Positions 39,001 through 42,000 of a DNA stretch of 64,000 bases are shown here, piece after piece; position 1 is the stretch's first letter; the number at the start of each line of letters is the position of its first letter. A program made the position numbers. Location of the stretch: the NCBI GenBank assembly GCA_036479435.1, contig JAZGFI010000243.1, positions 41,227 through 105,226 of the forward strand, written 5' to 3'. The DNA is from Planctomycetota bacterium (GTDB taxonomy: Bacteria > Planctomycetota > GCA-002687715 > DRQF01).

Positions 39001-42000
39001 CCCCAACGTTTGTTGGTCATCCCGCCGGTAGAGGTGGCAGCGGCGAGATTCCCCATCTTGTCCAGCGCGACGCAACCGACAGTGCCTTTGCGGGTTTCAG
39101 TTGAGGCATCGTCGCGGCGAAGAGCCTTCTCGAGAGATCGGCGGCGCTTCGCGGTCGAAAAATAGTGGTTCGGTACGCGCTCTACCTTGGTCGTGTCGGC
39201 GAACTCTTCCGCCCCATCGCCCATCAAAAAGACATGCCGGGTGTTCTCCATGACGCGCCTTGCCAGGGTAATGGGATGCCGAATAGTCCTCACTCCGGTC
39301 ACGGCTCCGCAAGAAAGGTCACGCCCGTCCATGATCGACGCATCCAACTCGTGCGTTGCGTCATGAGTAAACACCGCTCCCTTACCTGCGTTGAATCGCG
39401 GATCATCCTCGAGGCGCCGCACGACGGCCTCTACGGCGTCGAGCGCCGACCCTCCGCTTTCGAGCCGGCGCCGACCTTCCACTAAAGCCGCACGCAAAAC
39501 TTGGCGGTAGCCATCAATCTGGTCGGCCGGAAGATCTTTCGGGATGACGCCTGCACCGCCGTGGAGTGCCAGGGCCCAGGCTGGCGACGGGTGGTCCCGG
39601 GGGCTCATTTCGCCGTCCGCGACCGCCGCACAGCCGACGCTCAACACCAGACAACATGCCAAAAGAGTCGTTAAAAGCCCATTCACCGCATCACCCCCTG
39701 ATAATTCCCCACAGTCGTTCTGCAAGCTGTACGATCGCAGAGTTAGATCCGAGATCCAAGTGTTCGGTCTAGATATCCTTCTCGCGTCGCCAATTCCGGC
39801 TGGCGCCGAAAGCCGTTGTGGAGAATCCCCTATGGAGCCGAGTTCCTTTAACGTCGTCATCGACCAAAGTCACTTCAAACTTCGCGAGAGTTCTCTCGAG
39901 TACATCGCGAAAAAGATCGAGAAACTGGACCTTTGGACTCGCAAGTTCCCCCGGCGCTCTTGCCATATCTCCCAAGAGCATTCCGAACGCGAGGGCACCC
40001 ATCGATTCACGATTTCCTTGGATCTCTCCAACGCTACGCTCGTGGGACACGCCGAAGAAAAACACCTTCGCGGAGCTTTCGATCGCGCCTTCAAAAAACT
40101 CATGCGCCAGTTGAATGAGTTCAAACAACTCCTCCGCCGCGAGCACCTAAAGGGCAAGACGCCAGCGGCCGGACACGCGCCGACGCCAGCGAGTTTTCCC
40201 TACGCTTCTCCCGAACACGAACTTGAGGTCTTTCGAAAGGACGCCCAGCAGGCGCGCCGCTCCCTAGAGGATTTCTTGGAGTTCGAGATTCGCCTCTTGC
40301 AGCAGCGCCAACCCGAATTCAAAGTTGACCAAAGCTCTTTCTGCGAACGGGTGATGGAGGAGGCCATCAGCAAAGGTGAGGATAAGCCGCGCCGGGTTAG
40401 CGCCCGGGGTTGGCTTTTTGAGGTGGGGCTTCGCATGCTCGAAGAGGAAGCCGCGAAGGCTCCAAAGGTCCAACCGCAGGCGGGGGCCAACGATCTGAGT
40501 AGCACCGCATCCCTGCTCAAGGCCTTTTTCGTCGAAGACGGTGAGCCGACTCCTCATGACTTTGATCGCTTGCTGGGGGCGCGGCTAGCCGAACTGCCCC
40601 GAGATTGGCGACGGTGTTTCCGTTTGCACTACGTTGAAGACCTCGACGTCGAGTCGATCGAAAGAATCCTCGAACTCTCGCGTGAACAGGTGGAGTTTCG
40701 ACTTCGCGGTGCTTCGGAGTTTCTGCGTGACCACCTTGAAGAAAATGGTGGACGCTAACTAAGACTCATCGCCGTCTTCCCCAGGAATCCATCCATGCGC
40801 GCTTGCCTATTGCTTTTTTTTCTTGCCTTCGCGGCCAGCTCTGTCCTCTGTCAGGGACCGACTTCGCCGTTCGAACCCTTCGCGATCCCCGCATCGCCAC
40901 GCTGGCGTAGCGCGATCGAAAACGGCACGCGACTTGCCGACGGAAACCCCGGGCCCGAGTACTGGAGCAACCGCGCCCACTATGAGTTGAAAGTCCGCTT
41001 GGATCCCGAGACCGCAACCGTCAGCGGTGAAGCCCGGCTCAGCTACACCAACGGCTCTCCAAAGTCCTTGAAGCAACTCGTGGTGCACCTACGGCAGAAC
41101 CTCCACCGGGCCGGTATTCGCCGCACTCGCGTGGTCGAAACGAATAAGGGTGTCACGCTCGGTGCGATCAAGCTCGAGGGCAAAGAGCTGACAAAGGGCT
41201 TTCGCAAGGGCTATTCGCTCCGCGGCAGCGTCATGCGTGTGCGCCTGCCCAAGCCTTTGGCGCCGGGAAAAACGACGATTCTTGATATCGAATGGAGCTA
41301 CCAAGTTCCGACCGCGGGCAAGGCTCCGCGCAACGGCCACGAGGACCATCACGTTTTTTACCTCGGCTACTGGTATCCCCAATTTGCGGTTTGTGACGAC
41401 GTCGAGGGTTGGGTTGCAGACCAGTACCTCGGTAACGGCGAGTTCTACATGGACTATGCAGACTATGACATCGAATTCACGGTGCCCCGCCGCTTTATGG
41501 TCCAATCCACCGGCACGCTTGAGAATCCCTCAGAAGTTCTCACCAAGTCCGCACGGCGAGCCTTGAAGCGCGCCGCGAGCCAAGACGAGGTGGTCTCCAT
41601 CATCGGCCCCGATCGTGAAGCCGAAGACGCGCTTAGAAAGGGAGACGCTCAGGGTCTGCTGACCTGGAAGTTCAAAGCCTCCAAGGTTCGCGACGTCGCG
41701 GTTTCCATTTCCGACCGCTACCACTGGGACGCTACCCGCGCCCTTGTGAAGGACCGAGATGGCCCGGGCCGTGACGCTTACTGTGCCATTCATGCGCTTT
41801 ACGAGCCGAAGGTTAAAGCCTGGCGGCGCGCGGCAGAGTACGCACGTTTCACCATCGAGTGGATGTCCAAAAACGTCCATCCCTACCCCTGGCCGCACAT
41901 GACCGCCTGCGAGGGGATTATTGGGGGCGGCATGGAATACCCGATGATGACCGTCGTCGGCTCAAGGTCGGAACGCGGCACGCGGGGAACCATCTCACAC

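What a model noticed while it worked through the whole genome (the two positions that open the first line are those of the whole stretch)
39832..40758. Ribosome hibernation factor domain fused to an ECF-type sigma factor
g03716 (308 aa) joins an N-terminal HPF/YfiA (Ribosomal_S30AE) domain to a C-terminal ECF-like sigma factor (helical sigma-2-like domain plus sigma region 4), while a normal stand-alone HPF (g01660) is kept elsewhere. I read it as a sigma factor that is parked on, or senses, the 30S subunit through its HPF domain, so that ribosome hibernation and a transcription programme are switched together. That would be a new way to regulate an ECF sigma factor (no anti-sigma gene is adjacent) and a direct ribosome-to-RNA-polymerase link.
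Evidence so far: Pfam: Ribosomal_S30AE E 1.7e-10 (res 10-99), Sigma70_r4_2 E 4e-7 (res 247-292), both over their cut-offs. NCBIfam: TIGR02937 sigma70-ECF aligns model 42-164 of 165 to res 178-301 (E 2e-8), TIGR00741 yfiA to res 10-101 (E 4e-8), both under cut-off. AlphaFold (7-row alignment) pLDDT 73: beta-alpha-beta-beta-beta-alpha fold 6-106, four helices 127-209, helices of region 4 at 241-304, linkers disordered. Six other clusters of 317-329 aa in 5.8 billion proteins carry the same two Pfam domains, 37-51% identical, with invariant residues in both halves. In 201 Planctomycetota genomes only 1 other genome (same order) matches at E<=1e-10. Search 'ECF sigma'/'N-terminal extension'/'S30AE': none of the [...]
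(Added by a program. Inside this text positions count along the whole contig: contig position 41,227 is position 1 of the stretch shown here. "Call 12" and the like, gene names such as g00115 and contig names such as C1 are that model's own, and its searches are not shown. The text may have been shortened before it was handed on; [...] marks where a part breaks off. The agent that wrote the report below was given it as the finding of a first reader that could run no searches.)

Follow-up and report, generated by a model that had tools for sequence, protein, structure and literature searches.

The report
Hibernation-factor domain fused to sigma-like module
This planctomycete gene really does join a ribosome-silencing (HPF) domain to an ECF-sigma-type module, but it belongs to a widespread, already noticed fusion class whose sigma part seems to have lost its DNA-reading surfaces, so what the tail does is still an open question.

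Summary
Window 39832-40758 (+) encodes one 308-aa protein with an N-terminal HPF/RaiA fold (Z 14.2, rmsd 1.5 A to V. cholerae HPF) and a complete ECF-type sigma2+sigma4 module (hhalign 99.4% against 37 ECF sigmas of the same genome). The stretch is identical in contigs from three studies.

The rarity and novelty claims do not hold. 34 of 46 further representative clusters carry both domains. 26 of 401 Planctomycetota genomes have a relative. 303 plasmid records carry one, among them orf11 of the E. coli heat-resistance island. A 2025 preprint and a 2026 paper already name the class "HPF-SigE". This scan has also met the fusion before on other DNA.

New here: the two DNA-reading surfaces are de-charged. 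The sigma4.2 helix has net charge 0, against +3.6 in the genome's canonical ECFs; region 2.3-2.4 has -1, against +4.3. The conserved Gln of region 2.2 is replaced. Six planctomycete relatives lack sigma4 altogether.

Best reading (0.45): a non-canonical hibernation factor whose sigma-derived tail binds a protein and is not a promoter-specific sigma. Nothing has been tested experimentally. Verdict: new member of a known kind, moderate interest.

The parts
39820..39825 (+). Shine-Dalgarno-like GGAGAA, 6 nt (GGAG core 8 nt) before the ATG
   Evidence: Read directly from the sequence.
39832..40758 (+). Whole gene: HPF-ECF-sigma-like fusion protein, 308 aa plus stop
   Evidence: Identical in contigs of 3 runs.
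39847..40149 (+). HPF/RaiA (Ribosomal_S30AE) domain, residues 6-106, with a beta-alpha-beta-beta-beta-alpha fold
   Evidence: Pfam 40.9 bits. AF2 pLDDT 90-98. VIA-align Z 14.2, rmsd 1.5 A, 92 of 92 residues of 4hei_A. Hallmark residues Y24, K31, D84, R92, Q93 and K98 are invariant in the 7-row alignment.
40150..40209 (+). Conserved basic end of helix 2 (LRREH...), followed by a disordered linker, residues 107-126
   Evidence: R102, R103 and H105 are invariant. pLDDT is under 50 at residues 109-122.
40210..40458 (+). Sigma2-like four-helix domain, residues 127-209 (regions 2.1-2.4), with the Gln of region 2.2 replaced and region 2.4 de-charged
   Evidence: PDB profile hit to SigW covers chain residues 11-185 of 187. 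hhalign against canonical ECFs gives 99.4%. Charge analysis.
40459..40551 (+). Sigma2-sigma4 linker, residues 210-240. It is the shortest in the family and lacks the acidic FYQPDEDL motif of most relatives.
   Evidence: Alignment A2. Low pLDDT at 219-230.
40552..40743 (+). Sigma4 (region 4.1-4.2) helix-turn-helix domain, residues 241-304. The recognition helix REQVEFRLRGASEFLRDH has net charge 0.
   Evidence: Pfam Sigma70_r4_2. PDB profile hit to Mtb SigE, E 8.6e-12. Charge analysis.
38685..39860 (-). Context: divergent Asparaginase_2 gene. This is the longest ORF; its true start probably lies further in, because the Pfam domain begins at residue 95.
40795..42714 (+). Context: M1-family peptidase with a signal peptide, starting 37 nt downstream on the same strand. 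It is syntenic only in the closest relative.

Best explanation
This is a non-canonical member of the HPF family of ribosome hibernation factors, of the 'HPF-SigE' chimera class. The N-terminal HPF domain is inferred to sit in the tRNA/mRNA channel of the 30S subunit of idle ribosomes, as all solved HPF, RaiA and HPFcold domains do. A module descended from an ECF sigma factor (sigma2 plus sigma4) has taken the place of the dimerising C-terminal domain of long HPF. It hangs from a roughly 20-residue flexible, basic linker, and is inferred to reach the solvent side of the 30S. The two surfaces with which ECF sigmas read the -10 and -35 elements have lost their positive charge, and some relatives have dropped sigma4 altogether. 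The tail therefore most likely no longer directs promoter-specific initiation. It more likely serves as a protein-binding module, either for RNA polymerase core or for an anti-sigma-type partner (inferred). This would couple ribosome idling to transcription, or simply give this hibernation factor a different anchoring or regulation. What is shown: the fusion, the folds, homology over the full ECF length, the loss of charge, the sigma4-less relatives, and coexistence with a canonical HPF. What is inferred: ribosome binding, the position of the tail, and its partner.
For: - **HPF fold and hallmark residues:** Z 14.2, rmsd 1.5 A, 92 of 92 residues of 4hei_A; Z 14.0 to ribosome-bound RaiA 8rd8_D. 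Y24, K31, D84, R92, Q93, K98, R102 and R103 are invariant in 7 of 7 subfamily sequences.
- **Precedent from a sister chimera:** HPFcold was seen by cryo-EM with its S30AE domain in the 30S decoding centre and its fused domain on the anti-SD (PMC13392368, passages).
- **Full-length ECF homology:** hhalign of 39 fusion modules against 37 canonical ECFs of the same genome gives 99.4%, E 2.8e-21, 169 columns. The PDB profile hit to SigW covers chain residues 11-185 of 187.
- **De-charged sigma4.2 helix:** over 18 aligned columns the net charge is +3.57 (sd 1.28, min +1) in 37 canonical ECFs, +0.05 (sd 1.66) in 39 fusion representatives, and 0 in this protein. The whole sigma4 domain is +2.3, -1.1 and -5 respectively.
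- **De-charged region 2.3-2.4:** +4.34 (sd 1.32) in 29 of 37 canonical ECFs, +0.08 (sd 2.48) in 36 of 39 fusions, and -1 here. The region 2.2 motif D-x-x-Q-[DE] reads D-x-V-[DE] in the fusions.
- **Weak match to curated ECF models:** 60th of 63 TIGR02937 matches in its own genome, at 31.6 bits against a cut-off of 42.9.
- **Sigma4-less relatives:** six planctomycete relatives in 3 families stop 12-70 aa after the sigma2-like domain, and no sigma4-like frame lies in the 2.3-2.4 kb fetched.
- **Canonical HPF kept:** a canonical short HPF sits in a classic hpf neighbourhood, as the preprint reports for HPF chimeras.
- **No anti-sigma, no conserved neighbour:** none across the planctomycete loci.
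- **Compact modelled arrangement:** the modelled sigma2/sigma4 arrangement matches compact, partner-bound forms best (EcfG-type RpoE/NepR 5uxx_A Z 15.0; PhyR Z 11.3-12.6). It does not match the extended RNAP-bound form (rmsd about 27 A).
Against: - Both sigma2 and sigma4 are kept and strongly conserved across phyla. In this subfamily the recognition helix is almost invariant (F289, R290, L291, R292, A294...) and keeps two arginines, including the one aligned with the conserved Arg of canonical T-V-[KR]-[ST]-R. This is what a conserved -35 specificity would also look like.
- 9 of 39 fusion representatives have a helix charge of +1 or more, which overlaps the canonical minimum.
- Net charge is a crude proxy for DNA binding. 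The region 2.3-2.4 windows were taken from a fixed Trp, not from a structure-based alignment.
- A compact AF2 arrangement is usual for any free ECF sigma, so it does not discriminate.
- There is no direct evidence here that the protein binds ribosomes, RNA polymerase or any other partner, and no expression data.
Confidence: 0.45

Rival explanations
1. One reading: a genuine ECF sigma factor whose activity is gated by its HPF domain. The protein is parked on vacant 30S/70S ribosomes, so the ribosome acts as the anti-sigma. It is released, for example, when translation resumes or when abundant canonical HPF competes it off, and it then directs a dedicated regulon.
For: - It has complete sigma2+sigma4 architecture, homologous to ECFs over the full length.
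- Sigma4 passes Pfam's cut-off.
- The recognition helix is nearly invariant within the subfamily and keeps R290 and R292.
- No anti-sigma gene is adjacent, which fits regulation in cis.
- Some sources annotate relatives as sigma-70 family factors.
Against: - Both DNA-reading surfaces are de-charged relative to all 37 (sigma4.2) and 29 (region 2.4) canonical ECFs of the same genome that were compared.
- The Gln of region 2.2 is replaced.
- The module scores below the curated ECF cut-offs.
- Sigma4-less relatives exist in 6 planctomycete genomes.
- No conserved neighbouring target genes and no shared upstream motif were seen.
- A delta-orf11 mutant of the heat-resistance island showed no change in the one assay read (PMC8407380, passages).
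Confidence: 0.3
2. The HPF-like domain no longer binds ribosomes. It is an in-cis regulatory (anti-sigma-like or sensor) domain that masks the sigma module until a signal arrives, as the N- or C-terminal extensions of some ECF groups do.
For: - ECF sigmas regulated by fused extensions are known, e.g. ECF121 BldN and ECF36 SigC (PMC7826278, passages).
- With the deeper alignment, pTM rises to 0.58, which may reflect some fixed packing between domains.
Against: - The HPF hallmark residues and the basic end of helix 2 are invariant, and the fold superposes on ribosome-bound HPFs at 1.5-2 A.
- The 109-122 linker is predicted to be disordered.
- No contact map between the domains was available.
- The sister chimera HPFcold does bind the decoding centre.
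Confidence: 0.1
3. A PhyR-like partner switch. The sigma-like module mimics a real ECF sigma and titrates that sigma's anti-sigma factor, with the HPF domain (ribosome-bound or free) as the input in place of a receiver domain.
For: - The best structural match of the module is an EcfG-type sigma bound to NepR (Z 15.0), and PhyR sigma-like domains follow at Z 11.3-12.6.
- 25 of the 46 relatives scanned show a PhyR_sigma-like Pfam match at E<=0.01, and for 3 of them (P0036, P0045, P0046) it is better than Sigma70_r4_2.
- The DNA-reading surfaces are de-charged. That this resembles PhyR is recalled, not tested.
Against: - This protein has no PF22233 match at E<=1.
- No NepR-like or anti-sigma gene is nearby.
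- On PDB sequences the profile matches true ECFs far better than PhyR: 8.6e-12 against 9e-7 at best.
Confidence: 0.1

Closest known systems
Chimeric 'SigE-HPF' / 'HPF-SigE' isoforms (bioRxiv 10.1101/2025.11.04.686544, section 10 read; named again in PMC13392368), including orf11 of the E. coli locus of heat resistance / tLST
   Same: The order of domains is the same: an S30AE domain, then an ECF-like module in place of the long-HPF C-terminal domain. It coexists with a canonical HPF in the conserved hpf locus and has a variable genomic location. The sequences are homologous: E. coli AW1.7 orf11 scores 170 bits (E 4e-54) on the family profile A2, and 25 bits (E 4.9e-10) on the 7-row planctomycete profile.
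   Different: Identity to the proteobacterial members is only about 24%. This subfamily has the shortest sigma2-sigma4 linker and lacks their acidic FYQPDEDL motif. It is not in a stress island, and it is not next to Balon, Hsp20 or ClpK genes.
HPFcold (Coxiella CBU_0020; S30AE + cold-shock domain), PMC13392368
   Same: It is an HPF chimera in which a borrowed stress-protein domain replaces the dimerisation domain. The S30AE part is seen in the 30S decoding centre.
   Different: The fused domain there is an RNA-binding CSD that grips the anti-SD. Here it is a sigma-derived helical module with no known RNA-binding role.
Long HPF (S. aureus, B. subtilis, Listeria) and short HPF/RaiA
   Same: The N-terminal fold and motifs are shared: profile E 5e-8 to 8uu4_w and Z 12-14.
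   Different: There is no Ribosom_S30AE_C dimerisation domain. The TIGR00741 equivalog cut-off is not reached.
ECF (group 4) sigma factors, e.g. SigW, SigH, sigma-E
   Same: The two-domain sigma2+sigma4 architecture and homology over the full length are shared.
   Different: It scores below the curated cut-offs. The Gln of region 2.2 is replaced. Region 2.4 and the 4.2 helix are not basic. It carries an N-terminal 110-aa HPF domain and has no anti-sigma partner.
PhyR anti-anti-sigma factor (sigma-like domain + receiver)
   Same: A sigma-derived module fused to a different input domain. The predicted fold is compact and similar (Z 11.3-12.6).
   Different: There is no receiver domain, no NepR partner was found, and the sequence is closer to true ECFs.

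Membership tests
HPF/RaiA/YfiA family (Pfam PF02482 Ribosomal_S30AE) | Score over Pfam's gathering cut-off | tested here: met
   40.9 bits against 23.7, residues 10-99.
HPF/RaiA/YfiA family (Pfam PF02482 Ribosomal_S30AE) | beta-alpha-beta-beta-beta-alpha fold that superposes on solved HPFs | tested here: met
   Z 14.2, rmsd 1.5 A, 92 of 92 residues of 4hei_A; Z 14.0 to RaiA 8rd8_D. Secondary structure.
HPF/RaiA/YfiA family (Pfam PF02482 Ribosomal_S30AE) | NCBIfam equivalog TIGR00741 cut-off | tested here: not met
   33.8 bits against 40.9.
HPF/RaiA/YfiA family (Pfam PF02482 Ribosomal_S30AE) | Binds the 30S decoding channel of idle ribosomes | not testable with these tools
   Inferred only, from the fold, the conserved residues and the HPFcold precedent.
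ECF (group 4) sigma-70 family | Sigma2 and sigma4 domains, homologous over the full ECF length | tested here: met
   SigW chain residues 11-185 of 187. hhalign 99.4%, 169 columns, against 37 ECFs of the same genome. Z 15.0 over model residues 129-308.
ECF (group 4) sigma-70 family | Curated family score (TIGR02937 cut-off; Pfam Sigma70_r2) | tested here: not met
   33.8 or 31.6 bits against 42.9. No Sigma70_r2 match at E<=1. Sigma70_r4_2 is met, 28.6 against 25.7.
ECF (group 4) sigma-70 family | Basic DNA-reading surfaces (4.2 recognition helix, region 2.3-2.4) | tested here: not met
   Helix charge is 0, against +3.57 (min +1) in 37 canonical ECFs. Region 2.4 is -1, against +4.34 in 29. Charge is only a proxy for DNA binding.
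ECF (group 4) sigma-70 family | Region 2.2 core-binding motif D-x-x-Q-[DE] | tested here: not met
   The fusion consensus is D-v-V-D-e, and this protein reads SFCERVMEE. The role of the Gln in binding beta' is recalled, not tested.
ECF (group 4) sigma-70 family | Binds RNA polymerase core and directs promoter-specific initiation | not testable with these tools
See Tried and rejected for the one modelling attempt.
HPF-SigE chimera class / tLST orf11 family | One ORF: an S30AE domain followed by an ECF-like module, without the long-HPF C-terminal domain | tested here: met
HPF-SigE chimera class / tLST orf11 family | Sequence homology to described members (E. coli LHR orf11, between hdeD-GI and trx-GI) | tested here: met
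   orf11 scores 170 bits on profile A2 over positions 1-335, and 25.3 bits (E 4.9e-10) on the planctomycete-only profile A1.
HPF-SigE chimera class / tLST orf11 family | Coexists with a canonical HPF kept in an hpf-type locus | tested here: met
   A second S30AE gene lies on C113, followed by YvcK-like and HPr-like genes.
PhyR-type sigma mimic | Sigma-like domain fused to a receiver domain, with a NepR-type partner | tested here: not met
   No receiver domain and no PF22233 match at E<=1. No small anti-sigma gene nearby.

The most novel reading that the evidence does not exclude
The sigma-derived tail still grips RNA polymerase core (or a sigma-type regulator) while the HPF domain plugs the 30S. 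Idle ribosomes and the transcription machinery would then be physically tied together and switched off, stored or released together. That would be a direct protein bridge between ribosome hibernation and transcription. It would be encoded from planctomycetes to the heat-resistance islands of enterobacteria.
Probability: 0.2. Interest if true: 0.8.

Novelty: new member of a known kind. Interest (0 to 1): 0.4.

Why it matters
No member of the HPF-sigma chimera class has been tested for function, although the class includes orf11 of the heat-resistance (tLST/LHR) island carried by many Klebsiella, Enterobacter and E. coli plasmids. Knowing whether the tail is a working sigma factor, an RNA-polymerase tether or a sigma mimic would show whether bacteria couple the shut-down of translation directly to transcription. 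This planctomycete subfamily adds a compact variant with a short linker. Together with its sigma4-less cousins, it narrows which parts of the tail can matter.

Tried and rejected
- **Complex prediction.** The sigma2-like part (residues 122-214, 39-row alignment) was modelled against the beta' clamp-helix fragment of the same genome (17-row alignment). The result was 'no answer' (score 0.00, mark 0.32), which is no evidence either way.
- **Expression.** No RNA holder was listed. The runs laid were contigs only, so they say nothing about transcripts.
- **Promoters.** The consensus scan found no sigma-70-type promoter in 39500-41000, and its two terminator-like hairpins are at chance level. Reading by eye, the upstream regions of the window, L003, L005 and L008 showed no shared motif. 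Four regions are too few for motif discovery, so no regulon prediction was attempted.
- **Conserved neighbours.** Synteny with the MATE and M1-peptidase genes holds only for the closest relative, at 51% identity. A GH113 gene overlaps the stop codon in three relatives at about 39% identity. Seven further planctomycete loci have unrelated neighbours. My first guess, that the downstream gene in L004-L006 was an asparaginase, was wrong: it is GH113.
- **Balon-type partner.** No PF10116 (Host_attach) match was found in the genome, which is 92% complete. Whether that family covers Balon is my recollection, so this is weak.
- **The search for related loci.** I used the genome search instead.
- **Taxonomy of distant clusters.** One search gave almost no taxon names: one Gammaproteobacteria MAG.
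- **Sequence look-up in this scan's earlier findings.** It returned nothing.
- **Artefact readings rejected.** A frameshift or misassembly is ruled out by identical contigs in 3 runs and by conservation of the fusion in 34 of 46 clusters.
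Full report
**1. The observation**

Window 39832-40758 (+) is an open frame of 308 codons. 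A GGAG sits 8 nt before the ATG. The longer frame starting at 39544 is not used: the N-terminus MEPSSFNVV aligns with the N-termini of the homologues.

- Pfam gives Ribosomal_S30AE on residues 10-99 (40.9 bits, cut-off 23.7) and Sigma70_r4_2 on residues 247-292 (28.6 bits, cut-off 25.7).
- NCBIfam gives TIGR02937 on residues 178-301 (33.8 bits, cut-off 42.9) and TIGR00741 on residues 10-101 (33.8 bits, cut-off 40.9).
- The word-indexed search returns the same six other clusters of 317-329 aa at 37-51% identity.

The stretch 39400-41200 is identical, with no indel, in one contig each of three runs from three studies. Two of these may be the source of this DNA and the third is from another study. 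The fusion is therefore not an assembly or frameshift artefact.

**2. Anatomy**

With the 7-row alignment AF2 gives pLDDT 73.2. With a 39-row alignment it gives pLDDT 87.5 and pTM 0.58, and only residues 109-122, 219-223 and 228-230 fall under 50.

- **HPF domain, residues 6-106.** The fold is beta-alpha-beta-beta-beta-alpha. It superposes on V. cholerae HPF (Z 14.2, rmsd 1.5 A, 92 of 92 residues) and on ribosome-bound RaiA, HPF and pY (Z 12-14).
- **Sigma module, residues 127-209 and 241-304.** These residues form four helices and a region-4 helix-turn-helix. A profile of the 7 sequences matches B. subtilis SigW over chain residues 11-185 of 187 (E 9.8e-6).
- **Match of the sigma halves to solved ECFs.** A profile of 11 planctomycete sigma halves matches Mtb SigE (8.6e-12), a SigH/SigE chimera (1.1e-11, profile positions 50-205) and SigH (3.2e-11).
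- **Match to ECFs of the same genome.** hhalign of 39 fusion modules against 37 canonical ECF sigmas of the same genome gives 99.4%, E 2.8e-21, over 169 columns that span template positions 19-187 of 190.

The C-terminal half is therefore a complete ECF-type module, not only region 4.

**3. The family is not rare**

- **Exhaustive search.** The exhaustive search of 1.84 billion representatives finds 48 proteins at E<=1e-3. Of the 46 that I scanned, 34 carry both an S30AE match and a sigma region-4 or ECF match at E<=0.01. Most of the rest are fragments or plain sigmas.
- **Planctomycetota.** A 39-row profile run over 401 Planctomycetota genomes, the window's own included, finds 16 full-length relatives. 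It also finds 2 cut by contig ends, 2 split and 6 shortened ones, 26 genomes in 8 families in all. The raw tally of 373 of 401 is meaningless, because the profile also hits ordinary ECFs.
- **Other phyla.** A Cupriavidus megaplasmid carries an unannotated 363-aa member, next to a histidine kinase, Hsp20, DnaK and a Tn3 transposase. It scores 290 bits on the profile.
- **Plasmids.** With that protein as query, 303 plasmid records match, 244 of them over at least 80% of the length. Klebsiella accounts for 126, Enterobacter 74, Acinetobacter 32 and Escherichia 22.
- **The heat-resistance island.** In E. coli AW1.7 the match is the 381-aa 'hypothetical protein' between hdeD-GI and trx-GI, which is orf11 of the locus of heat resistance / tLST. 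It scores 170 bits on the wide profile and 25 bits (E 4.9e-10) on the planctomycete-only profile.

**4. What is in print**

- bioRxiv 10.1101/2025.11.04.686544 (section 10 read) describes chimeric HPF isoforms that lack the dimerisation domain and are fused to Csp, SigE or CBS domains. It reports a 'SigE-HPF fusion' on plasmid pEc78. It states that the chimeras coexist with canonical HPF at variable loci, and it reads them as hibernation-factor variants.
- PMC13392368 (passages) shows the sister chimera HPFcold on the ribosome by cryo-EM. Its S30AE domain sits in the decoding centre and its cold-shock domain on the anti-SD. The paper names 'HPF-SigE' as a fusion class.
- The ECF reclassification PMC7826278 has no occurrence of 'ribosom', 'S30' or 'hibernation' in its main text. 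Its supplementary tables were not looked at.
- In PMC8407380 a delta-orf11 strain did not differ in lipid oxidation after chlorine treatment.
- My searches found no experimental study of any HPF-sigma fusion.
- This scan has met the fusion before on other DNA.

**5. Is the tail a working sigma factor?**

I compared it with the ECF sigmas of the same genome. That genome has 63 TIGR02937 matches, 57 of them over the cut-off, and this gene ranks 60th at 31.6 bits.

| Region compared | Canonical ECFs, same genome | Fusion representatives | This protein |
|---|---|---|---|
| Sigma4.2 recognition helix, 18 aligned columns | +3.57 (sd 1.28, range +1 to +6), n=37 | +0.05 (sd 1.66, range -3 to +4), n=39 | 0 (REQVEFRLRGASEFLRDH) |
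| Whole sigma4 domain | +2.3 | -1.1 | -5 |
| Conserved Trp of region 2.3 plus the next 23 residues | +4.34 (sd 1.32), 29 of 37 | +0.08 (sd 2.48), 36 of 39 | -1 |

Two further points argue against a standard sigma:
- The canonical region 2.2 motif D-[LIV]-x-Q-[DE] reads D-[LIV]-V-[DE] in the fusions.
- Six planctomycete relatives, in three families, consist of HPF plus the sigma2-like domain only. They stop 12-70 aa after it, and no sigma4-like frame lies in the 2.3-2.4 kb fetched.

Against this reading:
- Sigma4 is kept and strongly conserved in most members.
- In this subfamily the helix is nearly invariant and keeps R290 and R292.
- 9 of 39 fusion helices reach +1 or more.
- Net charge is only a proxy for DNA binding.

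**6. The HPF half**

The residues that mark the family are invariant in the 7-row alignment: Y24 and K31 in helix 1; D84, L90, R92, Q93 and K98 in helix 2. The basic continuation R102, R103 and H105 is invariant too. They align with the same positions of solved HPFs. The genome keeps a separate short HPF, followed by YvcK-like and HPr-like genes, which is a typical hpf neighbourhood.

**7. Context**

The neighbours are an Asparaginase_2 gene (divergent) and a secreted M1-family peptidase that starts 37 nt downstream. A MATE transporter and an unknown secreted protein lie further upstream.
- Only the closest relative, at 51% identity, shares the MATE ... M1 peptidase frame.
- Three relatives at about 39% identity have a GH113 gene overlapping the stop codon.
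- Seven further planctomycete loci have unrelated neighbours.
- No anti-sigma gene, no Balon-type gene and no stress island lies near the planctomycete genes.

**8. Reading**

- **Best explanation (0.45).** It is a hibernation factor of the HPF-SigE class. The HPF domain is inferred to plug the 30S decoding channel. The sigma-derived tail has replaced the dimerisation domain and, having lost its DNA-reading charge, is inferred to act as a protein-binding module.
A ribosome-gated true sigma factor remains a live rival.
- **Minor rivals (about 0.1 each).** One is a purely cis-inhibitory HPF-like domain. The other is a PhyR-like mimic: the module's best structural match is EcfG-type RpoE bound to NepR at Z 15.0, with PhyR at Z 11.3-12.6, but that compact arrangement is usual for any free ECF model.

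**9. Verdict**

The gene is a new member of a known, still uncharacterised kind. Interest is 0.4.

Noticed in passing
L005:9262-10131 (-), and the same position in L004 and L006: A conserved 289-290-aa protein with a Cys-rich N-terminus (CxxCRFGSGP..C) and a C-terminal Sigma70_r4 match. It lies two genes downstream of the fusion gene in three relatives and could be a regulator.
   Followed up: no
Own genome G000, e.g. C209:14154-14609, C84:33578-34012, C17:41724-42146: 57 ECF-type sigma matches score over the cut-off. More than a dozen lie in open frames of 650-1110 aa, i.e. ECF modules with very long C-terminal extensions.
   Followed up: no
G152:C167:2759-3502, G187:C34:48000-48743, G220:C52:14154-14801 (not fetched): These are stand-alone ECF-like frames. 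They match only the sigma half of the fusion profile (positions ~96-335), at E 1e-22 to 1e-25, better than ordinary ECFs. They may be unfused relatives of the tail, or the donor lineage.
   Followed up: no
L007 (Cupriavidus sp. P-10 plasmid pMTS1, NZ_AP025172.1 969407-982393): This 1.64-Mb record has only 2 annotated features. The unannotated fusion gene sits beside a Tn3-family transposase, a histidine kinase, Hsp20 and DnaK, which looks like a mobile stress module.
   Followed up: partly
window 38685-39860 (-): The longest Asparaginase_2 ORF runs 29 nt into the start of the fusion gene. The Pfam domain starts at residue 95, and a lipoprotein-like signal (LLACCLVLSVGC) precedes it. The true start is therefore probably further in, and the two genes are divergent with roughly 150 nt between them.
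   Followed up: partly
L003:7000-9604 (+): In the closest relative, three genes are inserted between the fusion gene and the M1 peptidase: a MoxR/Mg-chelatase-like ATPase, a VWA-domain protein and a lipoprotein. They are absent from the window. The assignments are by eye from the translations.
   Followed up: no
Alignment A2/A3, linker between sigma2 and sigma4 of most non-planctomycete members: There is a strongly conserved acidic motif (P..PP..EV.TLGDEI.DFYQPDEDL+.ED) in a linker about 32 columns longer than in canonical ECFs. F, P and E are invariant in 17 sequences. It is missing in this window's subfamily and its function is unknown.
   Followed up: partly
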